The notes: generated by a model not told the origin, from the sequence alone. A DNA stretch of 64,000 nucleotides from Candidatus Ryanbacteria bacterium CG10_big_fil_rev_8_21_14_0_10_43_42 (GCA_002793915.1 PFEF01000003.1:18854-82853), one strand, 5' to 3'; shown: positions 3,025-59,651, counted from the stretch's first letter. Made by a program: numbers and translations.

Positions 3025-3037
3025 GTATGGTAAAATT

Positions 3038-3526
3038 ATGAAAAAAGGATTTACTCTTATAGAACTTCTCGTTGTCATCTCTATTATTGGGCTTTTGGCG
3101 AGTGTTGTGTTGGCAAGCTTAAACACAGCACGTTCCCGTGCGCGAGACGCACGGCGCATGACGGACATGCGCCAAATACAAACCGCCCTCGAACTGTATT
3201 TTAATGATAATGGCGTGTACCCCAGTACCAGCAACGTATGGTTCGGTGTTTCAGTTAATGGAGGAAGCCGCGGCGTTACCGGTGCCGGCGGCTATATACC
3301 CAACCTTGCCCCTACGTACATACCAACCTTACCCGTAGACCCTCTTGATAATAGAAGTGGTTGGTCCGGGTATCTATATCTATCAATTAATGGATCACAA
3401 TACGCCCTCCTCTCTACCGTGATTGGCCCCGAAAGTTTCCCGTCTGCCGGAGAACCATTTTATGACCCCAATCGCCCCACATGGGCATGGAAAGTCTGTA
3501 GCGGTCCGCCGGAATGTAATCGCTAA
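3038..3526 (+). CDS. type IV pilin / pseudopilin (prepilin-type N-terminal methylation domain)
   Basis: N-terminus MKKGFTLIELLVVISIIGLLASVVLASL is the canonical class III signal (G|FTLIELLVV). Confidence 0.85.
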   Translation: MKKGFTLIELLVVISIIGLLASVVLASLNTARSRARDARRMTDMRQIQTALELYFNDNGVYPSTSNVWFGVSVNGGSRGVTGAGGYIPNLAPTYIPTLPVDPLDNRSGWSGYLYLSINGSQYALLSTVIGPESFPSAGEPFYDPNRPTWAWKVCSGPPECNR

Positions 3527-3572
3527 ATACAATCCTTGCAAATCCTTCACAAAGAAGACATCCTTGGGATAT

Positions 3573-14933: not shown

Positions 14934-17900
14934 ATGGAGAAAAAGAGAAAATCGTTCATAGATGGACGGGACGCCCTTAATATACTTAGGGAAGCGTTTA
15001 CGTCCCGTGATAAAAAAACACCACCCTTTTCGGGACATATTGCGGAACTTCAAAAATCACTGCACGGCCCCGAAGCGCATACCGTAGCTATTGATACCGA
15101 GAAAAGCAGTGATACCCTTAACGAAACTCCGCCTTTAACAACCAATCTGGGAGATGTATTTAAAAGGGCAAAACAAAAAGCCGAAAGCAATGCCTCATCT
15201 TCCACGGAAACAAATCCTTCGTTGAAAAACGGAGAATTACCGCCCGAAAAAACACCGGGAGAAAACGCCACCCTGCATAATGCCGCGGCCAGAATATTAC
15301 GCGGGGAAACGCCGCTTCCCCATGAACAAGAGGTTCTTGAAAATGAGCTCGAGAAAGCCGGTATTAATGAGGAAGTCAAGACGGAAAAAGAACTCTCTCC
15401 TGAAAAAAATAGCCCCGGTATCTCTGATAAGGAACGTAATGAATATGTGGACAGATTATTGACTCGCATGAGAAATGGCACCGGAAAGGGGTACGGACAA
15501 GGTCAGGGCGCAGGGCCGGGATATGAAGAAACGTGGTTGCGAGGATGGATGGCGGAACAAATGGCGGAACATGCTAATAGTCCTTCCATACAGGAAGAAA
15601 TACGCGCTATTGGTGAGCGCGCTCTTGCGTTGGAGAAAGAGAAAAAAAACGCTGACGATGCCCCCAAAATGCCCCCCGCTCCCATCCCGGAAACGGATTC
15701 CAAAGAGGTGGTAACATTAGCGGATCATTCTCCAGATACCGAAGAAGACAAAAAAGAAACGGGGAACAATCTTCCCGAAACCATCCTTATAACACCGGAA
15801 AACATTCCCGTACCCGAAGAAAATGCTCTTGCGATCGTACAGGATACTCATCCTAAGTCTGATGCGGTGTCCGAGCAAGTTGATACGCCAATGGAAGAAC
15901 ACCCTCCGGTAAAGGAAGGTCTTAAAAAAACGGAACAAGTTGCATTATTTATCCAAAAATATGATGCATTATTGGAAGCACTGGAGACAAAACGCCCTAC
16001 CGCCGAGGAACAACTTGAACGTCTTGCTCGTGGCATTGCCCAAAGGACGCAATTTAATGTTAGGGAAATTGAACAACGTTTGGCTGATGCGGAAGATGAC
16101 GGAGACAAGGTAATGTACGAAAAAGCAATTGAACTCATTAAGGAAGAAATCACCCCAGACGAAGAATCCTTCGCCCAAGAACATGTAAACGCATCAGAAA
16201 AAAAGGAAGAAGATATACCGGAAAACATTCCCGTACCCGAAGAAAATGCTCTTGCGAGCATAGCGAAAAAAACGGAACATCCTCCGGAACAGCAAGAAGA
16301 ATACTCTCCGATAAAGAAAGAAGACCTACCGGAAAAACCATTACGTGAAGAGAAAGAGGAGGAAGAGAAGGAGAAGGAGGAAGAGAAAATAGCCCGACTT
16401 GGTGTGGCATGGAAAGCCCTTAATGAACAAGTAGAGGAAGAGCGGAAAAAGCAGGAAGACGCGGAAAAGAAACGGAGAACAGATACCACAAAACGGGAGC
16501 AACCACTGGATCCAAATGATCTCCCCTCTGAAAAAAAAGAGCAAACGGATACTCCTAATACCGAAAACATCACGGCACACCGTGAGCAACCGATGTCTCA
16601 CATAACTCCGCGCGTTGAACAAGTGTTTAAAACATCGGGTATTCCGCTTGAACATATTAGGGAGATTCCCGGATATGAAAAGCTCTCCGAGGGACAACTT
16701 ATTCTTCTCTGCCGCAACATACAAGAGATGACTGTTGGTTTTGTGCATCGAGAAGCACATACGCAATTCGAACAGGACGCAAATACATCAGATGCCACGA
16801 AGTGGCTATCGGAAAAAATGGAAAGTTTTATTGACACAAAAGCAAAAAAATATCCGTGGATGGAACAACTTTACAAAGGCCTTGCCATTGGAAGCACGTT
16901 TACACATTTCCTTGGCAACGCATGGCACCGTGCTACGGAAGATGTTCAGCTTGAAAAGCGCCGTGAACATGCCCTTATGAACAAAGAGCTTTTCTTTAAT
17001 GATCCAACTACGAAAAATCATATACGCATACTTGCGGACCGCCTACAGGAAGGACCTGACGTTATTATTCACGGAAAAAATATCGAACTTCATTATTTAT
17101 CAGAAAATATAATGGATCCCTATTGGGAAAAACTTCCCGCTCATGACCGCATTAAGGCAAAAGCCATTCTCACTTCATTTAATAAATCCGTATGGAAATT
17201 CCAAGAAACTCCTTTCGCCAAAGATAAAGAACATAAAAAAGAAAAAGCATTTGTAAAAAACCGCGATAAACTTCTTGCCGTTATCAATAACCCCGATTTT
17301 TCAGCCTACATGACACGCATTGAAGGAGTGGCACGTGAACAAAAATTTCTGCGTAGTAACGAAGACGCCGCTAAGTACCTTGCTTGCGTGGAAGATAAAT
17401 CGGCATTGTGGGCGGCCTACGGAAAGATGGCATTGGAAAGAGGTACGAGCGTCGTACTGGGGCGGACCGTACGGGCCGGCATTAACGGTTTAACCGGTTT
17501 TATTGCATATCCGCTAGCAGGCGCCGCCGGAGCTGCTGTTGCGGGAGTCGGCGTTCATGGTCTTTTGCGCAGGGGACGCGTTCGTCGGGAGGAAACCATT
17601 AAACGCGAACAGGGCGTAACAAATGCACTTCGCCCATATATGAACGCTAGTAATCTTAGTCGTCGTTTCGAAACGCTCCTTTCCCGAACGGAAACAACGA
17701 CGGATAAAAAGAGTCGTGAAAGAAATCTTCTCTTCCTTGAACGACTCGTACACGCCACGGAAGGACGCGCCGAAGAAGGTCTTATTACCTATGGAGAAAA
17801 AGAGAAAGCCGGATCAGTGGAAGTAAACCGTTATGAACTTGGTATGCATATTGCAAAAGCACGCGTTTTACTTGCCCAAGAACATCTTGATAAAGAAAAA

Positions 17901-24190: not shown

Positions 24191-25381
24191 TTATACCGTG
24201 AACGAATCCGTATCATCTGATGAGTGTTCCGCCGATTCTACCGGCAATTGAACGGCAACAGGATCTGACTGATGAGAAGATGCGTAACGCGCTTCTTCCG
24301 CGGATATGCCGGATACGGGAGCATCCACCGTACGCACTTCTCCGCCAACCATCAATGATTCTTTCCTTTCTTCATGAAGACGCGCCATCAATCCCGTTAA
24401 ATGTTCGAATTCTTCGTCCGAAAAAAAATCTATTGAAATACGTCCTTTTCCTTCGCGCGATCTTCGCACTGTGACACGGGTTCCTAACGCACCGGCAAGT
24501 TCTGTCTCTACCTGTTTTGTTGTTGTGTCGTAAGCACGCCTTTCTATCTGTACTTTTCGCTCAGGAGAAACACCCACACGCGAAACAATATCATGAAAAG
24601 CGCTCTCCACATCGCGCGCAGAAAGACCACTGGCGAGAATCGCATGAAAGAGATTTTTTTGCTCTTCCGGCGCATGTGCCAAAGAAATAAGAGGACGTGC
24701 TTGCCCTTCCGTAAGACGTCCTTGTATAAGCGCATCCTGAACATATTCGGGAAGCGCCATCAAACGTACTGTATTTGCAACCGACTCACGACTCTTTCCC
24801 ACCCGAGCGCCCACTTCCCGCGGTGTTAACTTGAATTCATCCATTAAACGCTTATATGCGCGCGCCTTTTCCATCGGATTCAAATCTTCCCGCTGTAAAT
24901 TTTCTATAAGCGCAAGTTCCAGTTTTATTTTATTAGACTCCTCCCGCCGGACAATGGCAGGCATTTGTTGTAATCCTAGATAGGAAGCGGCGCGATATCG
25001 CCGCTCTCCCGCAATAATTTGATATTCGACACGTGTTCCGGTAGGAACATCTATTTCCTCTTTAGAAACAACAATTGGTTGCAGTACGCCATACTGTCGA
25101 ATGGAGTCGGCCAACGATTTTATTTTTTCCTCGTCAAAATGCGTCCGCGGCTGATGCGGATTTGGTTTTATTTTTGCTACCTCCACCCAAAAAACACTCT
25201 CTTTGGGCTGTTCTTGTGCGATAGGGTTTAGTTGTTCGACCACCGAAGACTCCGAACGATACACTGAAGGAGAAGAAGTCCCGGAAACACCGACTTCTTC
25301 TCCTGAAGTATGTTCCTTTTTTCTCTCATTATCATCCCCTCCCAAAAGAGCATCGAGTCCTCGTCCTAAAACATTAGACAT
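24191..25381 (-). CDS. parB: ParB/Spo0J-like chromosome partitioning protein (with acidic C-terminal extension)
   Basis: ParB box GERRYRAA, HTH region (TPREVGARVGKSRESVANTVRLMALP). Immediately downstream of parA on the same strand. Confidence 0.85.
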   Translation of the reverse strand: MSNVLGRGLDALLGGDDNERKKEHTSGEEVGVSGTSSPSVYRSESSVVEQLNPIAQEQPKESVFWVEVAKIKPNPHQPRTHFDEEKIKSLADSIRQYGVLQPIVVSKEEIDVPTGTRVEYQIIAGERRYRAASYLGLQQMPAIVRREESNKIKLELALIENLQREDLNPMEKARAYKRLMDEFKLTPREVGARVGKSRESVANTVRLMALPEYVQDALIQGRLTEGQARPLISLAHAPEEQKNLFHAILASGLSARDVESAFHDIVSRVGVSPERKVQIERRAYDTTTKQVETELAGALGTRVTVRRSREGKGRISIDFFSDEEFEHLTGLMARLHEERKESLMVGGEVRTVDAPVSGISAEEARYASSHQSDPVAVQLPVESAEHSSDDTDSFTV

Positions 25382-25407: not shown

Positions 25408-26172
25408 TTATCCTACTAGTCCGATTATTTCTTCTGTTAATTGGCAATATGCCTTGGCGCCATGAGAATAAGGGTCATATTCAAGGATTGTTTTTCCAAA
25501 ACTAGGCGCTTCCGCCAATTTAGTATTGCGTGGAATGACCGTTTTAAACACGTAATCCACCGCATTACCCCTCACCTCCTCCAGTATAGCACGAGAAAGC
25601 TTTGATGTTCTATCAAACATGGTAAGAACCACCCCCATGACGCCAATTTTTTTACGCGTCCGCATATTCAATTTTTGTATAGTACGCACGAGCTCGGTCA
25701 TCCCCTCTAGGGCATAATAATCGCACTGCACCGGAATAATAACATGATGAGCGGCAAGAAAGCCGTTAATAGTGAGAATACCCAATCCCGGCGGAGCATC
25801 AATAAAAATAAAATCATATTCGCGCGTAATAGGCAAAAGCGCACGATCAAGGTATGTCTCACGATACCGCGTATTCGCAAGTTCCACAGCGGCGGCGGCA
25901 AGATTGGGAGACGACGGCATAAGAAACAGATTGGAAATATTTGTTTTCTTTATCGCATCGCGCGCCGGAATAGCACCGATTATAACTTCATATGTTGTGG
26001 GTGTATCATCCATTCTTTGTATGCGTCCGGAAAGAGCGGATGTGGCATTCGCCTGCGGATCAAGGTCCACTAAAAGTACTTTTTTCCCGAGTGCCGCCAT
26101 ATATGCCGATATATTCAGTGTCGTTGTTGTTTTCCCCACACCCCCCTTCTGATTTGCAAAAATAATAGTCAT
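25408..26172 (-). CDS. parA: ParA/Soj partitioning ATPase
   Basis: Deviant Walker A KGGVGKTTT, LVDLDPQANAT. 254 aa. Confidence 0.9.
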   Translation of the reverse strand: MTIIFANQKGGVGKTTTTLNISAYMAALGKKVLLVDLDPQANATSALSGRIQRMDDTPTTYEVIIGAIPARDAIKKTNISNLFLMPSSPNLAAAAVELANTRYRETYLDRALLPITREYDFIFIDAPPGLGILTINGFLAAHHVIIPVQCDYYALEGMTELVRTIQKLNMRTRKKIGVMGVVLTMFDRTSKLSRAILEEVRGNAVDYVFKTVIPRNTKLAEAPSFGKTILEYDPYSHGAKAYCQLTEEIIGLVG

Positions 26173-26258: not shown

Positions 26259-26342
26259 GGGCAAGTGTCGGAATTGGTAGACGATCACGACTCAAAATCG
26301 TGTGGCCGTATGGCCGTGTGGGTTCGAGTCCCACCTTGCCCA
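26259..26342 (+). tRNA. tRNA-Leu (anticodon CAA)
   Basis: Acceptor GGGCAAG/CTTGCCC, anticodon stem CACGA/TCGTG with loop CTCAAAA, long variable arm GGCCGTATGGCC, T-arm GTGGG-TTCGAGT-CCCAC. Confidence 0.85.
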
Positions 26343-26429
26343 CTCTTTACCAGTAAGATTTGGTTGTGGTTGTTTCGCACGAGTGCGCCAACCGCGACGA
26401 TGTGTTGAGGGTAATTCATATACGTTAAA

Positions 26430-27296
26430 CTAGAGAGTAGATATCCTACTGTCTTGTAAAAATGGTGTAATATCTTCTGCTGGGATTTCGCGACCAATTG
26501 AAACTTCGGGTGTATATATTACGCCATGCCAGTCGCTTCCACCGGTGATATAGAGCCCCAATTTCCTGCCGAGATTTCTTAATGTGATGACTTCGTCTTC
26601 GGAATGTTTTGGGTAATAGACCTCTAATCCTAAAAGTCCCTCCTTTGCGAGGTTGGCTAATATTTCCTCATATGCTACATGTCCAAGCTTTCGTAACTCT
26701 CTCCCAGAATGAGCCAAGACAGGGATGCCACCTGCGCTGGCGATAAGCTGAAAACTTTCTTTTGGCGTCATCATCCACGTATCATCTTCCTGTTCTATAA
26801 AAACATACTTCCTCAAAACATCTTTAACGGTGATATTTCCTTTAAGATGTTGCGCTACTATTCTCGCGATAGTGTTTCTGCTCACATAGGCTTCATGTCC
26901 GGCGAGTCTGAGCGATTGAAAATCCATTCTCAGGTCTGGAAGTAATTTGTTAATTTTATCAATTATTGCGATTGCCCGACGATTATAGCCATCAATCGTT
27001 CGCTGCAGATTCTTATTCAATATTTCTCGATTGAGTTGTCTGCCATACCCAAGGATATGCAAAGAGAAGTTACTTCCAGACATACGATACAATGTAGAAA
27101 TTTCTACACCATCGATATACTGAATTTGGTTCTTTTCCGCATACGTTTTTATACTTGCGGTGTCTGGAAGGAAATTGTGATCAGTAATTGAAAAGATGGA
27201 GGTTTTCTTGTTTCTTGCCTTATCTATGATTTCTTCCGGCGATAACTCACCGTCGGAAAAATATGAATGTGTGTGCAAATCTAAATACATATACAA
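26430..27296 (-). CDS. PHP-domain phosphoesterase (TrpH/YciV-like)
   Basis: N-terminal LDLHTHSYFSDGELSPEEIIDKA matches the PHP metal-binding motif of TrpH/YciV. Further His/Asp ligands (ITDHN, HILGYG, LAHSG, GGSDWHG). 288 aa. Confidence 0.75.
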   Translation of the reverse strand: MYMYLDLHTHSYFSDGELSPEEIIDKARNKKTSIFSITDHNFLPDTASIKTYAEKNQIQYIDGVEISTLYRMSGSNFSLHILGYGRQLNREILNKNLQRTIDGYNRRAIAIIDKINKLLPDLRMDFQSLRLAGHEAYVSRNTIARIVAQHLKGNITVKDVLRKYVFIEQEDDTWMMTPKESFQLIASAGGIPVLAHSGRELRKLGHVAYEEILANLAKEGLLGLEVYYPKHSEDEVITLRNLGRKLGLYITGGSDWHGVIYTPEVSIGREIPAEDITPFLQDSRISTL

Positions 27297-27359
27297 ATGA
27301 TATTTTATATTATAACAAAAAGCTCCCGTCGGGTTAAATTTTCCGGCGGGAGCGTGGGT

Positions 27360-28133
27360 TCAACGCGAGCGAAGTGTATGACACAAGGACTGGTAATCTG
27401 CCTTAAACTGATCGCCGTGAATAACGAGATTGAAAAGACTCTCATACCAGTTCATGAGCAGCACGCCACGCTCAAAGTCTATTGACTTTTTGCAAGCGGA
27501 CAAAAAATCGATGGCAGTCGTTGAATCCACTCCATAGAATCGATCAAATGCCTCGAAGCATCCCTCAAGATTCGATGGAGGGATGACATAATCTGTTCTT
27601 AGCCTGCATGCTTGATATGTAAGCGCATTTCCTGGACCGTGTAGCAACTTGCTGACGAATATTCTTCCTTCTTCTCCGTTAAATGACCGTACGAGTTGGC
27701 GTCTACATATCGTTCTGTTGTCATGAAGTACATAGGCTGTAAGGTCAGCGAAGGAAAATCTGTGGACAGCGGTACTAATTGGTGTCACGCGGAAAACACC
27801 TTTGATGTCGCGACCGAAGACCAGTGATGGATTATATCGCGGATACCACAATGGAGAATTCCGATCAACAAACTCATCGACCGTGTGAGGCACCAGGTCT
27901 GTATCCTGGCCGGTCTTTTCCGTCAACGAGCGCCGTATGTCTCGCAATGTGCGATAATGCTCCGCATCCACGATACCGAAATTGCTCTCTACAATGACAG
28001 CAACATCCATATCTACGGATAGTTCGTTGTAGAGCCATGATCCATATATCCTAGCACTCGAGATGCAAGGTGCATTTTGCAGGACTTCTTGAACATTCTG
28101 AAGAATTAGTTCGCGTTCTTCATTCATTTTCAT
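27360..28133 (-). CDS. Pol-beta-superfamily nucleotidyltransferase with C-terminal helical domain (ANT/AadA-like minimal NTase architecture)
   Basis: hG[GS]x8-DhD motif (IYGSWLYNELSVDMDVAV). A candidate third acidic residue lies about 40 aa later (QDTDLV). About 150 aa of helical C-terminal domain. Strong GGAGGT SD 3-4 nt before the ATG. 63 nt upstream of, and co-directional with, the PHP gene. Confidence 0.55.
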   Translation of the reverse strand: MKMNEERELILQNVQEVLQNAPCISSARIYGSWLYNELSVDMDVAVIVESNFGIVDAEHYRTLRDIRRSLTEKTGQDTDLVPHTVDEFVDRNSPLWYPRYNPSLVFGRDIKGVFRVTPISTAVHRFSFADLTAYVLHDNRTICRRQLVRSFNGEEGRIFVSKLLHGPGNALTYQACRLRTDYVIPPSNLEGCFEAFDRFYGVDSTTAIDFLSACKKSIDFERGVLLMNWYESLFNLVIHGDQFKADYQSLCHTLRSR

Positions 28134-28271
28134 TACCTCCGTTTTGTGGTTGTAAATGTACTGCTTTGAGAAACCCGCTATGAATTTCTCACGGCGCTAC
28201 CGTAACACAATTTCTCACTTGATACAAAAGACCCTGCGTTAAAAATCCGCCGTGCATTCCTCATTGAATCC

Positions 28272-28288
28272 TGCCGCCCGCGCGTCAG
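28272..28288. repeat. GC-rich 17-18 bp motif TGCCGCCCGCGCGTCAG (left copy), embedded in an imperfect GC hairpin (CTGCCGCCC...GGCGGGCAG)
   Basis: Near-identical to 31113-31130. The two copies bracket the MTase-REase-Vsr cassette as imperfect direct repeats. Local GC is far above the surrounding sequence. Confidence 0.5.
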
Positions 28289-28518
28289 CGGAGGCGGGCA
28301 GCGGGGCGGGAGAGCGTACGATTTTGGTCAGAGCCACCACACGTTCCGCGCGGCACATTGTCAGCGATAGTATTGGTATAAAGCCAAAAAATTGCTAAAA
28401 TGTAGTTAGCGGAACATCCACAGGTCAAAACTAGCTGCTTTTTTCTGAAAAACCATATAGAATTAAGTTATGGGCGTTGGCCGTCCGGCGCGCCAAGCCC
28501 AAAATTAAGCTAATTTTT

Positions 28519-29535
28519 ATGAGCAATAAAACTTACAAAACTTTAGACCTGTTCGCCGGTATCGGAGGAATCCGAATGGGCTTTGAACGCGCCGGATTTG
28601 AAACAGTTTTTTCCAACGACTTTGACCCTTACTGCAAGCCAACCTACGATCTGAATTACAAAACGGCGCAGCTCGCTGTTGGCGACATTCAAAAGATAAA
28701 AAGTTCGTCTCTGCCTGCTTTTGATATTTTACTCGGCGGATTTCCTTGTCAGCCGTTTTCTGTTGCGGGTTACCGGCGCGGATTTCTTGATACAGGCAGA
28801 GGCGATTTATTTTTTGAAATTGTAAGGATTCTGCGGGACAAAAAGCCGTCCGCGTTTTTGCTTGAAAATGTAAAAAATCTAAAATCACACGACAAGGGCA
28901 AAACATTCAAAATTATTTCGGACGCGCTTGCCGACCTCGGCTATCATGTCAAAGTGAAAGTTCTAAACAGCATGGAATACGGGAATGTCCCGCAGAATCG
29001 CGAGCGTGTTTATATCGCCGGTTTCAAATCAAAAAAAGCGCATGATGTTTTTGAATTTCCGGAGCAAACACCGCTTACAAAAAGTATTTCCGATATTTTG
29101 GAGGAGTCGGTGGACAGTAAATATTACTACAACGACAGCACGCTTTATAAGCAACTCAAAGAAGCGATAAAATCACCGAATACAGTTTATCAATGGAGGC
29201 GAGCTTATGTGCGCGAGAATAAAAGCGGTGTTTGTCCGACACTTACCGCAAATATGGGAATGGGCGGACACAATGTTCCGCTTGTCAAAGATAAAAAAGG
29301 AATTCGGAAACTTACACCTCGGGAATGCGCGCGTTTGCAGGGCTTTCCCGAAAGTTATAAACTTCCGAAAGATTTGCCGGACACCAAGCTGTACAAACAG
29401 TTTGGTAATTCTGTCACGGTTTCCGTGGTAGAGAGGGTCGCAAGGCAGATGATGAAAGCCCTGCAAACAAACAATAATTATGTTTATAGAGAGCCAGTCA
29501 AAAGAACAACGAGAGTATTACGAACGGCTGCTTAA
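28519..29535 (+). CDS. DNA (cytosine-5)-methyltransferase (Dcm-type)
   Basis: Motif I LDLFAGIGGIRMGF, motif IV GGFPCQPFSVAG, motif VI ENVKNL, motif VIII/X region. Start set at the Met at 28519. The 3' end overlaps the next ORF by 56 nt. Confidence 0.9.
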   Translation: MSNKTYKTLDLFAGIGGIRMGFERAGFETVFSNDFDPYCKPTYDLNYKTAQLAVGDIQKIKSSSLPAFDILLGGFPCQPFSVAGYRRGFLDTGRGDLFFEIVRILRDKKPSAFLLENVKNLKSHDKGKTFKIISDALADLGYHVKVKVLNSMEYGNVPQNRERVYIAGFKSKKAHDVFEFPEQTPLTKSISDILEESVDSKYYYNDSTLYKQLKEAIKSPNTVYQWRRAYVRENKSGVCPTLTANMGMGGHNVPLVKDKKGIRKLTPRECARLQGFPESYKLPKDLPDTKLYKQFGNSVTVSVVERVARQMMKALQTNNNYVYREPVKRTTRVLRTAA

Positions 29536-30646
29536 AGCGGTCGGTTCACTCTCAAAATTATTTTCCGAAGCGCCGGAGCCGTATATTGCATACCGCGCAG
29601 CGGAAAATTTGTTTTGCAAGGCGTTTGAAGCCGAAAACCTTTCGCGTTCGGATGCTTCCGCTGATGCCTCAAAGAATAAAGTCGGTTTCGGAATAAAAAC
29701 ATTTTTGCACAAGAACGGAAAGTCGTTTGAAAAAATTGCCGAATTCAACAGCGACCACTCGCTTTTTCGCGCACTCGGCACCGAAGAAAAAATCAGAAAA
29801 ATTGCAGAGCTTAGAAATGAGCGCATAGAAACGACAAAGCGCATTTTCGGGCTTGAACAAATTATTTACCACTGTATAACGCGGCAGGTCGGAAAAATTC
29901 TTGTCTACGAAACTCCGGCTCCGCTAATTAAAATTGACGAAATAAAAGACCTGAAAGCGAACGGAAACACAATCCAGTTTTCCGACCCGTCCGCAGAGTA
30001 TTCTTTCAATGTTGCAAAAAGCACCCTGTATAAGCGGTTTATTACGCCCGAAAATGTGCTTCTTGAAGTTCCGGTTAGAATTCTTGAGGACCCGTTTGAC
30101 GAGATTGAAAAACTTATAACAGAAGCGGGACTAATTTTTGCTCCGATAAAAGTCCAGCCACATGTATTTCTTCCGCTGTATTCTACGCGGGGAGGAGATA
30201 AAAAGGTTCCTGAAAAAAGCGGACTTAATCAGTGGAACGCGAGTGGCCGTCCCCGCGATCCGAACGAGATTTATATTCCGATACCGGCATGGCTACACAG
30301 AAAATTTCCGAACTTCTTTCCTCCCCGCGACCAAGCATTTGAACTCACTTTGCCCGACAGGGCGACAATGAGCGCAAAAGTTTGCCAAGACAACAGCAAG
30401 GCGTTAATGAGCAATCCAAACTCTGCTCTGGGCAAATGGCTTTTGCGCGATGTTCTCAATCTTTCGGAGCGGGAACTGCTGACTTATGACAAACTTCAGG
30501 CAATCGGGCTTGATACTGTCGTTATCTACAAGACTGATAATCATACTTATGACATTGATTTTACGCGCATTGGGTCATACGAAAAGTTTTTGAATGAAAA
30601 CGGTGAATCCGGCGAGGAGGAAATCTCTGACGATGAGGAGGAATAA
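29480..30646 (+). CDS. putative type II restriction endonuclease (assigned by position between the C5-MTase and Vsr; catalytic motif not verified)
   Basis: 388-aa ORF with no recognisable enzymatic motif by eye. Acidic C-terminal tail (GESGEEEISDDEEE). Confidence 0.45.
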   Translation: MFIESQSKEQREYYERLLKAVGSLSKLFSEAPEPYIAYRAAENLFCKAFEAENLSRSDASADASKNKVGFGIKTFLHKNGKSFEKIAEFNSDHSLFRALGTEEKIRKIAELRNERIETTKRIFGLEQIIYHCITRQVGKILVYETPAPLIKIDEIKDLKANGNTIQFSDPSAEYSFNVAKSTLYKRFITPENVLLEVPVRILEDPFDEIEKLITEAGLIFAPIKVQPHVFLPLYSTRGGDKKVPEKSGLNQWNASGRPRDPNEIYIPIPAWLHRKFPNFFPPRDQAFELTLPDRATMSAKVCQDNSKALMSNPNSALGKWLLRDVLNLSERELLTYDKLQAIGLDTVVIYKTDNHTYDIDFTRIGSYEKFLNENGESGEEEISDDEEE

Positions 30647-30651
30647 TCGCT

Positions 30652-31050
30652 ATGGACAAAATAACGAGGGAACAACGGAGCCGAAATATGGCGGCTATTC
30701 GGAGCAGAGGAAATCAGACTACGGAAATTGCTTTTTCAAAACTGCTCCGAGCAAACAAAATTACAGGCTGGCGCAGACATAGCCGCCAAGTTTTCGGCGT
30801 TCCCGATTTTATTTTTCAGAAGGAAAAGGTGGCGATTTTTATAGACGGCTGCTTTTGGCACGGGTGTCCGCGGTGTAAAACACAACCAAAAACAAATACA
30901 AAGTATTGGAAACAAAAAATCGCCAACAATCAAAAAAGAGACAAGCAGGTCAAAAAACAACTTATTCGGGACGGGTGGAAAGTTTTTCGGTTTTGGGAGC
31001 ACGAGGTAAAAAAGAATCCGAATCGTGTTATGGACAAGATTGTTTTTTGA
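30652..31050 (+). CDS. vsr: very short patch repair endonuclease Vsr
   Basis: 132 aa. FIDGCFWHGC motif, conserved N-terminal TREQRSRNM and KLL...GWR regions of Vsr. Confidence 0.9.
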   Translation: MDKITREQRSRNMAAIRSRGNQTTEIAFSKLLRANKITGWRRHSRQVFGVPDFIFQKEKVAIFIDGCFWHGCPRCKTQPKTNTKYWKQKIANNQKRDKQVKKQLIRDGWKVFRFWEHEVKKNPNRVMDKIVF

Positions 31051-31112
31051 CCTTTCCGCCGCAAATTTAGGCGAACAGGCAAAAAGGAAGGGGATTGGGG
31101 GGAAGGAATTTT

Positions 31113-31130
31113 TGCCCGCCCGAGCGTCAG
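31113..31130. repeat. GC-rich motif TGCCCGCCCGAGCGTCAG (right copy of the direct repeat flanking the R-M/Vsr cassette)
   Basis: 17/18 identity with 28272-28288 after a 1-nt gap. Sits in a GC-rich patch (GGGGATTGGGGGGAAGG) just after the vsr stop. Confidence 0.5.
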
Positions 31131-31322
31131 ATTTCGTTTCTGCCACGCGAAGCGCGGCAATCGGTCAGATGTTTCGTTCAAAAAATGTTCGAGCAGAGTC
31201 GTATAATTCCACCAGATAGCCCCTCAAAAATCAAAAAGTTTTGTGTTGGTGTATTTATACAACCACGCTCGAACGCATTTTACCAAGAATTAAAAATACC
31301 CGTAAAAAATCCTTTACAAACC

Positions 31323-32723
31323 CTATGCGTTTTCCTGAGCATCAAGAAACACTCCCATCCTGTTCCATTTTTGCCACCTAAGCTCCGACTTGGTGACGAT
31401 TTTTTTTATGCTTTTTAAAAGGGCTTGGTACTCTACCAAATCCATAAAATAGAATAACAGCCACGCAGTTGGTGCCAACAACACCAGATTTCGATGAAAT
31501 TTTACCTTCGGATCAGAAATTATTTGAAGTACTATTACTCCCGTTAGCAGTGTAATGACAAATGCGAGTGGTACAAAGTCATTTGTATAAAACGTATATG
31601 TATAAAAGATTATGAGCAGAATACCCTCGCATAACAGTAAGAGTTCCGCAAAAAGAGCTATCGGAAGAATAAGAAAGCTTAAGTAAGATTTATGCGTCTT
31701 TCTTAAACTAAAAAAAAGACTTCGGTGTTTCCAAAATGTGAGCAACCGACCAAGCTTCCAACGAAGGCGTTGCTTACACAAACTCATAAAATCTGATGGT
31801 CCCTCAGTAAACACATACGCATCGGATGCGTAACGAACATGATACCCGAAAGCTTGTAATCGTGTAGAAATTTCAATATCTTCAGTAATCATATTTACAT
31901 CAAAATTACCGATTTCGGCGAACACGCTTTTTCTGTATGCGGCCGCGGCACCTCCAACTATATACACAGCGTTAAACAGTGAGTCTGCTCGTTTAAAATA
32001 AAAGCCGTAAAGATACTCGAGTTGTTGTATTAAACAAATTGGATTTGATCGATTACCAATGACAACGTTTCCAGCAACAGATGCAACGCGCATATCGGCA
32101 AAGTGTTTTACAATATTCTTAATGGCATTTTTATCCATAATGCTATCTGCATCAACGGTCATAACGATCTCATTAACTGCAACTTCGAGCGCTTTATTTA
32201 ATGCTCGTGCCTTGCCCCCATTTTTAATTTTCAGATAACGAATTTGTACCCCCGAATAAAGATTCTCTTTTTGACACTTGTTCAAAAAATCTGTCACTGT
32301 TTTGTGTGTATTGTCTGTTGATCCGTCATTTACCACCACAAGTTCCATCTTTGGATATTTTGTGTTTAATACGGACTTTATCGTCTTCATAATCCCAACC
32401 TCTTCATTCCATGCAGGAATTATAACCGAAACGCTTGGGAAAAAGTTTTCTTGCCTTCGTATCGATCTGGCGTGTTCAACTACAGAATAAAAAGGTGCTA
32501 TAAGTAACTGTATAAAATATTTTAGGATAATTGGGGCAAATAAAAGCAATACTAAAAATCGAATCGACTCAAACCCTTCAAGGGGTACAAAATCTTTTGA
32601 CCACGCAAAATAAAACACCAGTATTGTTGGTATATAAAGAAATAAAACAAACGACACAACAACTAAGGATTGTTTAAAATTACGGAAACTCATCATATAG
32701 CTTAAGTTACAAATATGACCCAT
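31323..32723 (-). CDS. processive family-2 glycosyltransferase (PgaC/IcaA/NodC-like polysaccharide synthase), membrane protein
   Basis: GT-A fold signature SVIIPAWNEE...VVNDGSTDNT, DAD (TVDADSIM), KQRLRWKLG (QxxRW). Transmembrane helices at both ends. 466 aa. Confidence 0.8.
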   Translation of the reverse strand: MGHICNLSYMMSFRNFKQSLVVVSFVLFLYIPTILVFYFAWSKDFVPLEGFESIRFLVLLLFAPIILKYFIQLLIAPFYSVVEHARSIRRQENFFPSVSVIIPAWNEEVGIMKTIKSVLNTKYPKMELVVVNDGSTDNTHKTVTDFLNKCQKENLYSGVQIRYLKIKNGGKARALNKALEVAVNEIVMTVDADSIMDKNAIKNIVKHFADMRVASVAGNVVIGNRSNPICLIQQLEYLYGFYFKRADSLFNAVYIVGGAAAAYRKSVFAEIGNFDVNMITEDIEISTRLQAFGYHVRYASDAYVFTEGPSDFMSLCKQRLRWKLGRLLTFWKHRSLFFSLRKTHKSYLSFLILPIALFAELLLLCEGILLIIFYTYTFYTNDFVPLAFVITLLTGVIVLQIISDPKVKFHRNLVLLAPTAWLLFYFMDLVEYQALLKSIKKIVTKSELRWQKWNRMGVFLDAQENA

Positions 32724-32936
32724 TTAATTACTTTTGTCAATAAATATTTATAAATCGCCGAATCAGATCTGGATTAAATAAGTGCAGGTTCCGGCTTCTT
32801 CTCTGCATCTTACCCGGACAATTTGTCGTTCAAATGTTTTTACGCATTCCATTAAACCAATTATATTCGTGTTTTTCAAGCATAAAATCCAACGATCTTA
32901 ACGATTGTATGAGTTTGACTCCCATCCGTAGCACAC

Positions 32937-32965
32937 TTTACAATACTATCTTCATATAGTATCAT
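32937..32965 (+). promoter_or_regulatory. putative promoter (TTTACA-17-TATCAT) with an embedded 7-bp-arm palindrome ATACTAT-n6-ATAGTAT (operator-like)
   Basis: The hexamers have ideal spacing 17-23 nt upstream of the small ORF at 32982. The palindrome occupies the spacer. Confidence 0.35.
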
Positions 32966-32981
32966 ACAAAAAATTGCCCCC

Positions 32982-33179
32982 ATGGAGGATGCGATGCAAC
33001 CAAAATCAGGGAACCGGAAAAGCGCATGTACTGCGCCTAAACATCCACGGCGTTTAATACGCCATTGGCCGGATAGGGCTCATAAGGTTAGGGTTCACGT
33101 CAGTAATCTACCCCCTGACCTTCGAGATGGCCAGCGTACGTTATGGAAGGAGAGATGCGGCGATGTTGTGTTTGTCTAA
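32982..33179 (+). CDS. small basic hypothetical protein (65 aa)
   Basis: ORF between the promoter/palindrome and the next small gene. An alternative start ATGCAACC is preceded by GGAGGA. Arg/Lys/His-rich. Coding status uncertain. Confidence 0.3.
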   Translation: MEDAMQPKSGNRKSACTAPKHPRRLIRHWPDRAHKVRVHVSNLPPDLRDGQRTLWKERCGDVVFV

Positions 33180-33203
33180 ATCATTTTAAGAAGGAGGAAA
33201 ATT

Positions 33204-33422
33204 GTGGCCGATAAAATGACGCGACGTCAAGTCATTCAGATGGCTTATGTTGCACCTCTCGTGCTGACTTTACCAGTAACCCCGTCATTTGCCATGACGG
33301 GGTCGGGGGCTCCCCATTCCCGGAGACGTCCCCACATAAACAGACCACGTATAACTGGGAGAAGGAATGTGACAAAAATAGTCACTCAATCACATCCCGG
33401 TAGCCGAGTAGACAGAGAGTAG
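33204..33422 (+). CDS. small protein (~70 aa) with twin-arginine-like N-terminal hydrophobic region
   Basis: Perfect AAGGAGG SD upstream. A rho-independent terminator abuts the stop. The peptide is MTRRQVIQMAYVAPLVLTLPVTPSFA|MTG... followed by a strongly basic 40-aa tail. Confidence 0.45.
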   Translation: MADKMTRRQVIQMAYVAPLVLTLPVTPSFAMTGSGAPHSRRRPHINRPRITGRRNVTKIVTQSHPGSRVDRE

Positions 33423-33448
33423 GACGTTCCCAGGAACGTCCTTTTTTA
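33421..33448 (+). terminator. rho-independent terminator (AGGACGTTCC-cag-GAACGTCCT + TTTTTT)
   Basis: 9-10 bp GC-containing stem plus T6 immediately after the small-gene stop. Abuts the folD stop codon (33446-33448), which lies inside its T-run. Confidence 0.6.
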
Positions 33449-34285
33449 TACGTTTATACCACACAATATAAGTAAATTTTTAAATACATTTGCAACCACA
33501 ATAGGTCCTACGCCGCCGGGCACGGGCGTTATGAGAGCGGCTTTCTTTTTTACCGAATCAAAATCCATATCCCCCCGTAACACTCCCTGCACCGGTGTTG
33601 TGCCTACATCAATGGCGCACACTCCTTCTTGTACCATATCTCCCGTAATAATCCCCGGAGATCCCGCACCTGTAACAATAATATCTGCATTTTTTGTGTA
33701 ATATATGCTGTCTTTCGTATACTTATTTATGGTTGTGATGGTGGCGCCTTCACGCAAAAACCATTCGCTAACCAATTTCCCCACCAGCATACCAGACCCT
33801 ACAACAACAACACGCTTGTCCCGCAATACATACGACGCATCATGGCGCAATAAAATTTCTTTTACCGCTCCCACTACGGGCGGCAGAATAATTGATGACC
33901 CCACATTAAAATCTCCAATGCTCCGGGCAGATAACATATCGACGTCTTTCTCCGGCGTAACAGCATTGAGTACTTTCTGTACGTTTCCTACACTATCCGC
34001 AAGAGGCAACTGTACAATAACGCCATTATTTTCCGGTACATGCACAAGTTCTGAAACGCGATCGCGCAAAGAACGTGCCGACATTGCATTCAGTACCTCA
34101 TCATACACCCGCACATCTACGCCTATTTTTTTGCCAAATTCCTCTTTTTTGCGCACAAATGTCTTTGTTGCCGGATCATGCGTCGTAAGAACAATAGCTA
34201 GTCGTAATTTTTTACGGGACATCTGAATCTTTTCCCGCAGAGTGTCCGCAATATCTGCCGATATTTTTTTGCCGTCAATTATCAT
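33446..34285 (-). CDS. folD: bifunctional methylenetetrahydrofolate dehydrogenase/cyclohydrolase FolD
   Basis: 279 aa. Conserved VVGSGMLVGK NADP-binding region and PVPGGVGP motif. Confidence 0.9.
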   Translation of the reverse strand: MIIDGKKISADIADTLREKIQMSRKKLRLAIVLTTHDPATKTFVRKKEEFGKKIGVDVRVYDEVLNAMSARSLRDRVSELVHVPENNGVIVQLPLADSVGNVQKVLNAVTPEKDVDMLSARSIGDFNVGSSIILPPVVGAVKEILLRHDASYVLRDKRVVVVGSGMLVGKLVSEWFLREGATITTINKYTKDSIYYTKNADIIVTGAGSPGIITGDMVQEGVCAIDVGTTPVQGVLRGDMDFDSVKKKAALITPVPGGVGPIVVANVFKNLLILCGINV

Positions 34286-34344: not shown

Positions 34345-35523
34345 TTATTGGGCACATTTCCGCACTTCAGCCAAAAGAATGTCGTCAATATTTTTTGCTA
34401 TTCGAATCATATCCTTTTCCCGCATTCCCTGGGTTGTGACGGCGGCCGTACCTAGCCGAATGCCGGAGGGATCAAACGGACTACGAACATCAAACGGTAT
34501 AGTATTTTTATTCACAATAATACCATTCTCCTCTAAGCAATTACTTGCCACTGCTCCCGGCACACCCCGAGACATTGTATCTACCAGCAATAAATGATTA
34601 TCCGTTCCTCCTGAAACAATACGCCATCCTCGCTTCTTTAATTCCCCCGCTAATACCTTTGCATTGGCAACTATATGACGAGCGTATGTTTGAAACGACA
34701 AACGCATAACCTCATGAAGCGCCACTGCAACGGCGGCAATTTGATTTTCATGCGGTCCTCCCTGAAGACCCGGAAATACAGCTTTGTCGATTTTTTTTGC
34801 GTATTCCCGACGTGAAAAAATAAGAGCACTGCGCGGTCCGCGGAGCGTCTTATGCGTTGTCGTTGTTACAACATCCGCGTAAGGAAAAGGCGTTGTATGA
34901 GCGCCCCCCGCAACAAGACCCGCAATATGCGACATATCTACCATCAAAAGCGCCCCGCATGCATCTGCCATAGCGCGGAATTTTTTCCAATCGATTTTGC
35001 GCGGATATGCCGTAAAGCCGGCTATAATAAGTTTTGGTTTTTCCTGTATTGCAATCTTTTGCAATGCATCATAATCCAAGCGTTCCGTTTTTTTATCCAC
35101 TCCATACGGCACCTGCTTCCATATTTTCCCCGTAATACTGACTGCCTGCCCATGCGTTAAATGTCCTCCCATGGGAAGCTCCATGCCCATAATCTTTTCT
35201 CCCGGAGGAACCAATGCCAGATATACCGCAAGATTTGCCGGAGACCCTGAATAAGGCTGTACATTTACCGTCCATTTTTCCGGATTCACCTTAAATGCCG
35301 CGAGTGCTCGCCTTTGGCACAGAACCTCAATATCATCAATAACAGCATTTCCCCCATAGTATCGCTTATGCGGATATCCTTCCGCATATTTATTATTCAG
35401 AACTGATCCAAGAGCTTCAAGCACGTCAGCAGACACATAATTTTCAGATGGAATAAGGTTGATAACGCCTTTTTGACGTTTTTCTTCCGCGTGTATTAAT
35501 TTTTGAATTTCTTTGTCTTTCAT
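34345..35523 (-). CDS. glyA: serine hydroxymethyltransferase
   Basis: 392 aa. PLP-lysine region TTTTHKTLRGPRSALI, the YSGSPANLAVYLA segment and the PMGGHLTHG stretch. Confidence 0.95.
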   Translation of the reverse strand: MKDKEIQKLIHAEEKRQKGVINLIPSENYVSADVLEALGSVLNNKYAEGYPHKRYYGGNAVIDDIEVLCQRRALAAFKVNPEKWTVNVQPYSGSPANLAVYLALVPPGEKIMGMELPMGGHLTHGQAVSITGKIWKQVPYGVDKKTERLDYDALQKIAIQEKPKLIIAGFTAYPRKIDWKKFRAMADACGALLMVDMSHIAGLVAGGAHTTPFPYADVVTTTTHKTLRGPRSALIFSRREYAKKIDKAVFPGLQGGPHENQIAAVAVALHEVMRLSFQTYARHIVANAKVLAGELKKRGWRIVSGGTDNHLLLVDTMSRGVPGAVASNCLEENGIIVNKNTIPFDVRSPFDPSGIRLGTAAVTTQGMREKDMIRIAKNIDDILLAEVRKCAQ

Positions 35524-54125: not shown

Positions 54126-54171
54126 TAAAAAACACCAGGTAAAAAACCGTGTTTTTACCTGGTGTTTTTTA
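54126..54171. terminator. bidirectional rho-independent terminator (13-bp stem ACACCAGGTAAAAA / TTTTTACCTGGTGT flanked by A6 and T7)
   Basis: Lies between the argS stop and the ileS start. Serves argS on the minus strand. Confidence 0.6.
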
Positions 54172-59647: not shown

Positions 59648-59651
59648 AAAA

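What the first reader, a model, noticed from the sequence alone, without database searches (positions are those of the whole stretch)
28272..31130. R-M/Vsr cassette bracketed by GC-rich imperfect direct repeats (TGCC(C)GCCCG(C/A)GCGTCAG)
The same 17-18 bp GC-rich word occurs 200 bp upstream of the methyltransferase and 60 bp downstream of vsr, in direct orientation (12/13 identical in the core). The left copy sits in an imperfect GC hairpin (CTGCCGCCC...GGCGGGCAG). Both copies lie in patches whose GC content is conspicuously higher than the AT-rich intergenic sequence elsewhere in the window. This looks like the scar of insertion of a mobile R-M unit (target duplication or recombination sites) rather than native intergenic DNA.
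Basis: seen in the sequence. Interest (0 to 1): 0.55.

Follow-up and report, generated by a model that had tools for sequence, protein, structure and literature searches.

The report
Mobile restriction cassette with repeat arms

Summary
The repeat is real: CCGCCCG[C/A]GCGTCAG at 28274-28288 and 31116-31130, same strand, 14/15 identical. On its own it is only nominally significant (shuffle p 0.004-0.03; 18 of 210 intergenic pairs in the window score as high).

Comparison with other copies of the cassette explains it. The M-R-Vsr cassette is highly mobile. Its R protein is 85-98% identical in many unrelated contigs, including a prophage, sites beside large serine recombinase genes, and a site next to a tRNA-Ile. 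It travels with a structured non-coding arm of about 350 bp.

In the closest independent copy (L076, 91% DNA identity), one arm contains both window flanks. Arm positions 31-99 match window 31053-31119. Arm positions 233-328 match window 28272-28366. Homology starts at the left copy and ends inside the right copy.

The repeats therefore mark the edges of element-derived DNA. They are most likely recombination joints or relics of two direct arms. They are not a host target duplication and not a REP-like family.

The cassette also lies inside a larger 6.6-6.9 kb block (PHP, NTase, M, R, Vsr, GT2) next to tRNA-Leu(CAA). That block is absent from the same FolD-ParA slot in three relatives.

This is a new member of a known kind, of modest interest.

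The parts
26259..26343 (+). tRNA-Leu(CAA); proximal edge of the variable block
   Evidence: Found by ARAGORN and Rfam tRNA at 55 bits. It is conserved upstream of ParA in relatives L060, L063 and L065.
26345..26356 (+). Exact 12-mer CTTTACCAGTAA, starting 2 nt after the tRNA 3' end; first copy
   Evidence: Only 4 of 5000 shuffles give a 12-nt exact match between the 30 nt after the tRNA and the GT2-FolD gap.
26430..27290 (-). PHP-domain phosphoesterase gene, part of the block absent from relatives
   Evidence: Pfam PHP. NCBIfam matches to RNase RNM and nucleoside bisphosphate phosphatase are below their cut-offs. No homolog in the FolD-ParA slot of L060, L063 or L065.
27360..28133 (-). Predicted nucleotidyltransferase gene (weak Polbeta NTase match), divergent from M
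   Evidence: Pfam Polbeta E = 2e-4, below the cut-off. No homolog in any fetched locus.
28246..28259 (+). Possible fragment of the arm's tail (TCCGCCGTGCATTC)
   Evidence: 13/14 to arm76 positions 33-46, E = 0.16. This is weak.
28272..28288 (+).
   Evidence: It aligns to arm76 positions 233-249.
28272..28366 (+). Left arm-derived segment (GC-rich hairpin module plus distal arm)
   Evidence: 82.5% over 97 nt to L076:151-56, which is in inverted orientation there; E = 1e-21 and 3e-22. Also matches the L068 arm with block-shuffle p <= 0.004. Contains the most GC-rich 40 nt of the window.
28380..28466 (+). Conserved cassette promoter/upstream region
   Evidence: 75-80% identical to L029-31, L033, L067-69 and L072. 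L076 matches from 28387 at 91%.
28470..28505 (+). GC-rich hairpin insert in the M 5' leader
   Evidence: Present in the window and L076; L032 may carry a different insert at the same place. Absent in L029, L033 and L067.
28519..29535 (+). C5 cytosine DNA methyltransferase (M)
   Evidence: Pfam DNA_methylase E = 5e-95. TIGR00675 dcm at 348 bits.
29480..30646 (+). Restriction endonuclease (R) with a C-terminal NgoFVII-type B3-like DNA-binding domain; overlaps M by 56 nt
   Evidence: Pfam RE_NgoFVII_C E = 2e-14. Homologs are named 'NgoFVII family restriction endonuclease' by NCBI. The N-terminal 240 aa match no family. No PDB sequence match.
30652..31050 (+). Vsr very-short-patch repair endonuclease
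   Evidence: Pfam Vsr E = 3e-20. TIGR00632 at 124 bits, above the cut-off.
31040..31125 (+). Arm 'tail': hairpin with a G-rich loop after vsr, conserved with other cassette copies
   Evidence: 84-89% identical to L067-74, L050-54 and L076. The local alignment to arm76 ends at 31125.
31113..31130 (+).
   Evidence: Its 5' part aligns to arm76 positions 91-103. Homology to all three arm versions stops after CGAGC.
31171..31200 (+). Arm-distal-like segment
   Evidence: 25/30 to the L054 right flank, E = 5e-5, collinear with the tail match.
31243..31291 (-). Inverted arm-distal-like segment; with 31180-31214 it forms a local palindrome
   Evidence: 69% over 49 nt to L068 arm positions 273-321, E = 1e-4. 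Block-shuffle p <= 0.006. Inverted repeat I1.
31323..32723 (-). Family-2 glycosyltransferase, part of the block absent from relatives
   Evidence: Pfam Glycos_transf_2. Its closest relatives (41-70% identity) sit in non-syntenic contexts, including gammaproteobacteria.
32884..32934 (+). Degenerate copy of the 3' half of a tRNA-Leu (anticodon loop to 3' end); candidate distal edge of the block
   Evidence: 38/51 to L063 tRNA-Leu positions 36-85, with 0 of 1000 shuffles as good. Alignment A1.
33268..33279 (+). Second copy of the exact 12-mer CTTTACCAGTAA; alternative distal edge

Best explanation
The M-R-Vsr genes form a horizontally mobile type II restriction-modification cassette. It travels with a structured non-coding arm of about 350 bp. 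The arm consists of a tail hairpin after vsr, a GC-rich word, a palindromic centre of about 125 nt, a second similar GC-rich word inside a GC hairpin, and a distal part.

In this window both flanks of the cassette are pieces of that arm, in the same orientation. The right flank (31040-31125) is the tail up to the first word. The left flank (28272-28366) runs from the second word through the distal part and abuts the cassette promoter.

My inferred mechanism is that a circular 'cassette + arm' intermediate recombined within the arm with an arm remnant already present at the site. Two direct arm copies that each lost complementary parts would give the same structure. In either case the unstable palindromic centre was lost and the words remained at the two joints.

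The repeats are therefore element-borne recombination joints, not duplicated host target. The window has no recombinase, so this copy is probably immobile now.

The cassette is nested in a 6.6-6.9 kb block (PHP, NTase, M, R, Vsr, GT2) that occupies a hotspot beside tRNA-Leu(CAA), between ParA and FolD.

What is shown: the homologies, their boundaries, the mobility of the cassette, and the absence of the block from relatives. What is inferred: the circular intermediate, the crossover at the word, and the order of events.

The confidence of 0.55 applies to the whole statement. That the flanks are cassette-associated arm DNA I put at about 0.85. That the word is the actual recombination joint I put at about 0.45.
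For: 1. Mobility. More than 5000 R homologs were found, many 85-98% identical, in contigs assigned to Patescibacteria, Methylomirabilota and others. DNA-level homology of 72-91% covers the cassette in loci whose flanking genes do not match the window's. These include a site 85 nt downstream of a tRNA-Ile, a prophage-like region with tail genes and a tyrosine integrase, and sites beside large serine recombinase genes or remnants in L067, L053/54, L041, L035 and L036.

2. The arm. In L067, L068 and L069, from three independent assemblies, the sequence after vsr is repeated in inverted orientation just upstream of the promoter. The match is 307/311 within L067 and 352/355 between L068 and L067. 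The L076 and L068 arms are homologous over 262 nt at 75%. In 773 kb of fetched DNA, arm matches occur only beside cassettes.

3. The window flanks are parts of one arm. Arm76 positions 31-99 match window 31053-31119 (84%, E = 7e-15). Arm76 positions 233-328 match window 28272-28366 (82.5% over 97 nt, E = 3e-22). Both are in + orientation. The match to the L068 arm survives 10-nt block shuffles (p <= 0.004).

4. Boundaries coincide with the repeat. Left homology begins at 28272, the first base of the left copy. Right homology ends at 31119-31125, inside the right copy. Beyond that point three other arm versions agree with each other and not with the window.

5. Arm-like DNA outside the right word (31171-31200 on +, 31243-31291 on -) and a possible tail fragment left of the left word (28246-28259) fit integration into a resident arm remnant.

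6. A sister cassette (L033) is bracketed by its own 44-bp direct repeat (39/44) with similar spacing, 2864 nt against 2842 nt here.

7. Larger block. Relatives L060/61 and L065/66 have SHMT-FolD-tRNA-Leu-ParA-ParB-RelA-TopA-DprA with nothing in between. L063/64 carry a different island in the same slot. A pseudo-tRNA-Leu 3' half lies at 32884-32934, and an exact 12-mer follows the tRNA end.
Against: - The word itself is short, and the window-versus-window match is only nominally significant.
- Extending the left-right alignment beyond the 15-mer is not significant on its own (p about 0.3).
- In the L076 and L068 arms the two words are only loosely similar to each other. Their 14/15 identity in the window could therefore be a coincidence of two GC-rich modules.
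- No arm without the palindromic centre was found, and no circular junction.
- No recombinase gene is present in the window.
- In the closest copies (L076, L067-69) the arms are inverted, not direct, which the model does not explain.
- No relative with NTase next to GT2 was found, so insertion of the cassette alone is not demonstrated.
- The relatives with empty slots are distant (ParA 60-68% identity). Loss in those lineages, rather than gain here, is less parsimonious but not excluded.
Confidence: 0.55

Rival explanations
1. Coincidence within real arm DNA. Both flanks are cassette-associated arm remnants, but the 14/15 match is a chance resemblance between two different GC-rich hairpin modules built from GCCGCC/GGCGGC-type stems. 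It would have no role as a joint.
For: The two copies map to different arm positions, about 91-107 and 233-249. CCCGCC/GGCGGG stems recur in GC hairpins of related genomes, for example L027 after FolD, L065 near the tRNA, and L054. 18 of 210 intergenic pairs reach the same raw score. The flank-to-flank extension is not significant.
Against: Shuffles that preserve local GC give p = 0.004-0.016. Both ends of arm homology fall on the word within a few nucleotides, which a random resemblance would not predict. In arm76 the two words share TGCC..GC..CGGAGC and bracket the palindromic centre.
Confidence: 0.3
2. Target-site duplication or host att duplication. The cassette inserted into native intergenic DNA between NTase and GT2 and duplicated a host sequence of 15-18 bp.
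For: The repeats are in direct orientation and bracket the whole cassette. Sister locus L033 has a 44-bp direct repeat in the same geometry. Such structures are known for R-M units (PMC2853133).
Against: Sequence homologous to both copies and their inner neighbours is carried with the cassette in unrelated contexts (L076, L067-70, L050-54), so it is element DNA and not host target. The copies differ by a substitution and an indel. No empty site with a single copy was found.
Confidence: 0.07
3. REP-like or terminator-like host repeat. The word would belong to a family of GC-rich palindromic intergenic elements of this genome, unrelated to the cassette.
For: The left copy is in a GC hairpin. GC-rich stem-loops occur in other intergenic regions, for example 27330-27360 and 33289-33338.
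Against: There are only two copies at up to 2 mismatches in the 64 kb, and none in the roughly 0.6 Mb of other loci held at that point. Arm matches occur only next to cassettes in 773 kb. No T-run follows the hairpins, and the terminator scan finds nothing there. Rfam finds nothing there. Only 64 kb of the source genome could be searched.
Confidence: 0.05

Closest known systems
Putative mobile forms of restriction-modification systems flanked by direct or inverted repeats (Furuta, Abe and Kobayashi 2010, NAR; PMC2853133)
   Same: The R-M genes are bracketed by repeats and linked to integrase or recombinase genes in some copies. Some family members have long inverted repeats (L067-69, L076) or a 44-bp direct repeat (L033). 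The unit lies in a tRNA-linked block. The cassette is found at many unrelated sites.
   Different: Here the repeats are pieces of a structured arm of about 350 bp that moves with the cassette. They are not a duplicated host target or short transposon-like terminal inverted repeats of 26-65 bp. In the window the arm appears circularly permuted around the cassette. No short target duplication outside the arms could be seen.
tRNA-linked genomic islands (integrative elements with a partial tRNA duplicate at the far end)
   Same: The block starts at the 3' end of tRNA-Leu(CAA). It ends near a same-strand degenerate copy of a tRNA-Leu 3' half. It is absent from the same slot in three relatives. The same slot holds a different island in L063/64.
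   Different: No integrase or recombinase gene is in the block. The tRNA-half copy is diverged (38/51 to a relative's tRNA). There are two candidate distal ends (32934 and 33279).
m5C methyltransferase + restriction endonuclease + Vsr modules (for example dcm-vsr of E. coli; NgoFVII-family type II systems)
   Same: A C5 methyltransferase, an endonuclease with the NgoFVII-type C-terminal B3-like domain, and a Vsr mismatch nuclease, all on one strand with overlapping or adjacent reading frames.
   Different: The N-terminal 240 aa of R match no Pfam family and no PDB sequence. The recognition sequence is unknown. Vsr is modular in this family: it is placed before M, after R, or absent, and its identity ranges from 41% to 95% while R stays at or above 78%.
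Elements mobilised by large serine recombinases
   Same: Large serine recombinase genes or remnants lie within about 2 kb of the cassette in at least five other contexts. The left word sits in an imperfect dyad (CTGCCGCC, 14 nt, GGCGGGCAG), which superficially resembles a recombinase site.
   Different: There is no recombinase in the window. No att sites are defined. The association is by proximity only.

Membership tests
Transposon-type target-site duplication | The repeat is host sequence: it is not carried with the element and differs between insertions | tested here: not met
   Both copies lie in DNA homologous to the arm that accompanies the cassette in L076, L067-70 and L050-54.
Transposon-type target-site duplication | A single copy of the repeat at an empty site in a relative | not testable with these tools
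   No relative with NTase adjacent to GT2 was found. All close contigs are 100% identical and carry the cassette.
REP-like genome-wide repeat | Many dispersed intergenic copies | tested here: not met
   Two copies in the 64 kb at up to 1-2 mismatches. None elsewhere in the roughly 0.6 Mb of loci held at that point. The rest of the source genome could not be searched.
R-M unit flanked by long repeats (classes of PMC2853133) | Direct or inverted repeats flanking both the R and M genes | tested here: met
   Window: a 14/15 word, plus arm-derived flanks in the same orientation. Family members: inverted repeats of 311-355 bp and a 44-bp direct repeat in L033.
R-M unit flanked by long repeats (classes of PMC2853133) | Genome comparison shows insertion of the unit relative to an empty site | tested here: inconclusive
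   Empty slots exist only for the larger PHP-to-GT2 block, not for the cassette alone.
tRNA-linked genomic island | Abuts the 3' end of a tRNA gene and is absent from the orthologous slot in relatives | tested here: met
   tRNA-Leu(CAA) at 26259-26343. FolD-tRNA-Leu-ParA are adjacent in L060/61 and L065/66.
tRNA-linked genomic island | Direct repeat of the tRNA 3' part at the distal end | tested here: met
   32884-32934 matches tRNA-Leu positions 36-85 at 38/51, with 0 of 1000 shuffles as good. It is degenerate. There is also an exact 12-mer next to the tRNA end.
tRNA-linked genomic island | Integrase or recombinase gene inside the island | tested here: not met
   The six genes of the block are PHP, NTase, M, R, Vsr and GT2. 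tblastn with the serine recombinases from related loci finds nothing in the window.
Type II R-M system with Vsr | C5 methyltransferase domain and Vsr domain above curated cut-offs | tested here: met
   PF00145 at 319 bits and TIGR00675 at 348 bits; PF03852 at 72 bits and TIGR00632 at 124 bits.
NgoFVII-family restriction endonuclease | N-terminal catalytic domain and GCSGC specificity (the specificity is from my own recollection of the characterised enzyme) | not tested
   Only the C-terminal B3-like domain matches (PF20731). The N-terminal 240 aa have no family or PDB match. Specificity cannot be read from sequence here.
Element mobilised by a large serine recombinase | Recombinase gene linked to the unit | tested here: not met
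   None in the window. Present beside the cassette in L067, L053/54, L041, L035 and L036.

The most novel reading that the evidence does not exclude
The cassette plus its structured arm of about 350 bp would be a minimal, non-autonomous mobile R-M element of candidate-phyla-radiation (CPR) and other groundwater bacteria. It would circularise and re-integrate at a GC-rich dyad word inside the arm, using large serine recombinases supplied in trans. It could sit with its arms either direct (this window) or inverted (L067-69, L076, where the whole cassette might then be invertible).
Probability: 0.2. Interest if true: 0.6.

Novelty: new member of a known kind. Interest (0 to 1): 0.38.

Why it matters
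R-M systems are known to behave as selfish mobile units, but the DNA that actually moves with them is rarely defined. Here one cassette family can be followed across CPR (Patescibacteria) and other phyla at 72-91% DNA identity, together with a conserved non-coding arm. That gives concrete candidate ends and joints for such a unit in organisms that cannot be cultured. It also identifies the FolD / tRNA-Leu / ParA slot as a recurrent landing site for defence genes in this clade. For this window itself the result is mostly clarifying: the short repeat is a relic of a known type of event.

Tried and rejected
- Exact-protein look-ups of NTase, and of PHP with the TTG start, found nothing. With the ATG start, PHP gave only 100%-identical same-strain contigs, as did GT2. 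There is therefore no strain-level empty site.
- The shared contig ends at 27480-27483 are assembly gaps with both sides present, not alternative junctions.
- The genome-contig scan with GT2 returned 15 relatives (41-70% identity) with no synteny. GT2 is itself a wandering gene and was a poor anchor.
- FolD relatives L027 and L028 keep synteny only up to FolD, and their contigs are too short to see the rest.
- Rfam found nothing in either flank. The terminator/promoter scan found nothing at the repeats. RNA folds of both flanks are no better than shuffles.
- Searching for short motifs (TGCC(C)GCC) is uninformative because they are common in coding DNA.
- A long-gap alignment of left against right flank beyond the 15-mer is not significant (p about 0.3). 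My hand alignment of 31126-31190 to arm76 positions 270-365 was not recovered by BLAST, so I dropped it.
- The R protein has no PDB sequence relative, and its N-terminal domain matches no Pfam family.
- NTase has no viral relatives.
- An integron attC reading of the tail hairpin was considered and rejected. The core sites do not fit the GTTRRRY consensus, and I recognised no integron integrase among the genes examined in the window or related loci. This rests on inspection only.
Full report
**What is in the window**

The window is 44.4% GC. It comes from an uncultured CPR bacterium: its FolD is 100% identical to a protein that NCBI names from "Candidatus Ryanbacteria bacterium CG10_big_fil_rev_8_21_...".

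Genes around the finding:

| Coordinates | Strand | Feature |
|---|---|---|
| 24191-25381 | - | ParB |
| 25408-26172 | - | ParA |
| 26259-26343 | + | tRNA-Leu(CAA) |
| 26430-27290 | - | PHP-domain protein |
| 27360-28133 | - | weak Polbeta-type nucleotidyltransferase (NTase) |
| 28519-29535 | + | C5 cytosine methyltransferase (M) |
| 29480-30646 | + | endonuclease (R) with NgoFVII-type C-terminal B3-like domain |
| 30652-31050 | + | Vsr |
| 31323-32723 | - | family-2 glycosyltransferase (GT2) |
| 32724-33445 | . | 722-bp non-coding gap |
| 33446-34285 | - | FolD |
| 34345-35523 | - | SHMT |

**The observation**

The best ungapped match is CCGCCCG[C/A]GCGTCAG, 14/15, at 28274-28288 and 31116-31130. 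The left copy lies in an imperfect GC hairpin. That hairpin folds no better than shuffles of the same composition.

The left patch is the most GC-rich 40 nt of the whole window, at 0.88. The right patch is only 0.59-0.65 GC.

Shuffles that preserve local GC give p = 0.004-0.016 for a direct match this good between the two flanks. However, 18 of 210 intergenic pairs in the window reach the same raw score. The word has no further copy in the window or in the other DNA fetched, apart from same-strain contigs. Alone, the repeat is suggestive but not compelling.

**The cassette is mobile**

R has more than 5000 homologs. Many are 85-98% identical, in contigs that NCBI assigns to Patescibacteria, Methylomirabilota and others. 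At the DNA level the window cassette matches the following loci:

| Locus | DNA identity to window cassette |
|---|---|
| L076 | 91% |
| L029-31 | 83% |
| L067-74 | 83% |
| L033 | 78% |
| L032, L034-37 | 71-74% |
| L050-54 (truncated R 3' end plus vsr) | 92.7% |

None of these loci shares a flanking gene with the window. Their contexts differ widely:

- a tRNA-Ile gene 85 nt upstream of the cassette promoter (L029/30);
- a prophage-like region with tail genes and a tyrosine integrase (L034, identical to IMG/VR contig L075);
- large serine recombinase genes or remnants within about 2 kb (L067, L053/54, L041, L035, L036).

Vsr is a swappable module. It sits before M, after R, or is absent, and its identity to the window Vsr ranges from 41% to 95%.

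**The cassette carries a structured non-coding arm**

In L067, L068 and L069, which come from three independent assemblies, the sequence that follows vsr is repeated in inverted orientation immediately upstream of the promoter. The match is 307/311 within L067, and 352/355 between the L068 right arm and the L067 left arm.

The arm has these parts, in order:

- a tail hairpin with a G-rich loop;
- a GC-rich word;
- a palindromic centre of about 125 nt;
- a second GC-rich word inside a GC hairpin;
- a distal part.

The arm versions of L076 and L068 are 75% identical over 262 nt. In 773 kb of fetched DNA, arm matches occur only beside cassettes.

**The key result**

L076 is the closest independent copy (R 97% identical in protein, 91% DNA identity). 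It has such an arm, inverted, on its left side. I call this arm, read in + orientation, arm76. It contains both window flanks:

| arm76 positions | Window coordinates | Identity | E-value |
|---|---|---|---|
| 31-99 | 31053-31119 | 84% | 7e-15 |
| 233-328 | 28272-28366 | 82.5% over 97 nt | 3e-22 |

Both window segments are in + orientation. The left-flank match is also recovered with the more distant L068 arm, and it survives 10-nt block shuffles (p <= 0.004).

It ends at 31119-31125, inside the right copy. Past that point the arms of L076, L068 and L054 agree with each other but not with the window.

The two copies of the word correspond to arm76 positions 233-249 (TGCCGCCGGAGCGATAG) and 91-107 (TGCCTGCGAGCCGGAGC). 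These two related words bracket the palindromic centre, which the window lacks. Relative to L076, the window therefore has the arm split at these words, with its two parts on opposite sides of the cassette.

Outside the words there is more arm-like DNA:

- 31171-31200 on the + strand matches the L054 flank at 25/30 (E = 5e-5);
- 31243-31291 on the - strand matches L068 arm positions 273-321 (E = 1e-4);
- 28246-28259 may be a tail fragment (13/14, E = 0.16, weak).

**Interpretation**

It is shown that both flanks are element-associated DNA and that the repeated word sits at the limits of that DNA.

I infer that a circular "cassette + arm" form recombined within the arm with an arm remnant already present at the site. 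Two direct arm copies that have each lost complementary parts would be structurally equivalent. In either case the unstable palindromic centre was lost and the words were left at the joints.

It remains possible (I put it at about 0.3) that the 14/15 identity is a coincidence between two GC-rich arm modules. Three points favour that view. The two words are only loosely similar in other arms. The left-right alignment cannot be extended significantly. No centre-less arm or circular junction was seen.

Sister locus L033 shows that direct repeats do bracket this cassette elsewhere: a 44-bp repeat, 39/44 identical, with a spacing of 2864 nt against 2842 nt here.

**Larger context**

No empty site for the cassette alone was found. 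All close contigs are 100% identical to the window.

Three more distant relatives keep the synteny on both sides, from LeuRS through SHMT and FolD on one side to ParA, ParB, RelA, TopA and DprA on the other:

- L060/61 and L065/66 have FolD directly followed by tRNA-Leu(CAA) and ParA;
- L063/64 carry a different island in the same slot, with a LexA-fused N6/N4 methyltransferase, an HTH protein and a ParE toxin.

None of the three has PHP, NTase, M, R, Vsr or GT2 in the slot.

In the window this block starts at the tRNA-Leu 3' end. Two features mark its far side:

- a same-strand degenerate copy of a tRNA-Leu 3' half at 32884-32934 (38/51 to the L063 tRNA, 0 of 1000 shuffles as good);
- an exact 12-mer, CTTTACCAGTAA, found 2 nt after the tRNA end and again at 33268-33279 (4 of 5000 shuffles).

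L065 also keeps a displaced tRNA-Leu 3' half 54 nt from its intact tRNA. The slot is therefore a recurrent integration site, and the R-M cassette is nested in a mosaic block of 6.6-6.9 kb that has no recombinase of its own.

**Comparison with what is known**

R-M units flanked by direct or inverted repeats, linked to integrases, and integrated at tRNA genes were catalogued by Furuta, Abe and Kobayashi (PMC2853133). This case belongs to that kind.

Its specific features are:

- a conserved, structured arm that moves with the cassette;
- the arm occurring as long inverted repeats in some genomes, and as permuted direct pieces here;
- the frequent proximity of large serine recombinase genes.

**Limits**

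- Only 64 kb of the source genome could be searched for further copies.
- The relatives with empty slots are distant (ParA 60-68% identity).
- What lies outside the inverted arms was not resolved.
- The enzyme's specificity is unknown.

Noticed in passing
window 26259-26343, 32884-32934, 26345-26356 and 33268-33279: tRNA-Leu(CAA) is followed by a block of six genes that is absent from the FolD-ParA slot of three relatives. The far side of the block carries a degenerate tRNA-Leu 3' half and an exact 12-mer that also follows the tRNA end. This looks like a tRNA-linked island without an integrase.
   Followed up: yes
L063:5282-9903 and L064:2441-7062: In a relative (ParA 65% identical) the same FolD / tRNA-Leu / ParA slot holds a different island: an alpha/beta hydrolase, a 500-aa LexA-fused N6/N4 methyltransferase, an HTH protein and a ParE toxin. 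The slot looks like a hotspot for defence genes.
   Followed up: partly
L067:45-355 versus 2991-3301; L068:1-106 versus 2742-2847; L069; L076:56-353: In several genomes the same cassette is flanked by near-perfect inverted repeats of 311-355 bp. In L067 a large serine recombinase gene starts about 280 bp beyond the right arm. The arm carried on the vsr side in L068 is the longer type found on the M side in L067, so the cassette may be invertible.
   Followed up: partly
L054:478-1095, 2747-3570 and 3858-4007 (also L050, L052, L053): A decayed copy of the cassette lies next to rpoB. Only the last ~135 aa of R survive, while vsr is intact (95% identical to the window Vsr). The region is bracketed by an 85-bp direct repeat (86% identical) that overlaps the 3' end of a serine recombinase remnant.
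   Followed up: partly
window 28470-28505: A GC-rich hairpin (GGGCGTTGGCCGTCCGGCGCGCCAAGCCC) sits between the cassette promoter and the M start codon. It is present in L076 and absent in L029, L033 and L067; L032 may carry a different insert at the same place. It may be a regulatory leader element.
   Followed up: no
L065:9646-9702: This Ryanbacteria relative has a displaced tRNA-Leu 3' half 54 nt from its intact tRNA-Leu. The fragment resembles the window's tRNA more than L065's own tRNA, which suggests a scar of a past integration.
   Followed up: partly
window 31139 (start of L005), 30331-30390 (L003/L021 overlap), 27480-27483: Contigs from other assemblies of the same strain end at these points. 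The Logan contig L005 starts 9 nt after the right copy of the word, which might reflect a population variant at that joint. The 27480-27483 breaks are simple gaps.
   Followed up: partly
window 1511-1593 / 1622-1704; 15794-15834 / 16217-16257; 54126-54171; 59647-59680: There is an exact 83-bp direct repeat near the two tRNA-Ser genes and an exact 41-bp direct repeat inside the 1411-aa ORF. There are also two palindromes of 34-46 bp in intergenic DNA.
   Followed up: no
window 31323-32723: The closest relatives of the GT2 gene (52-70% identity) are scattered over Patescibacteria and marine gammaproteobacteria (Kangiella, Neptuniibacter), with no shared neighbours. This suggests the gene is itself horizontally transferred.
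   Followed up: partly
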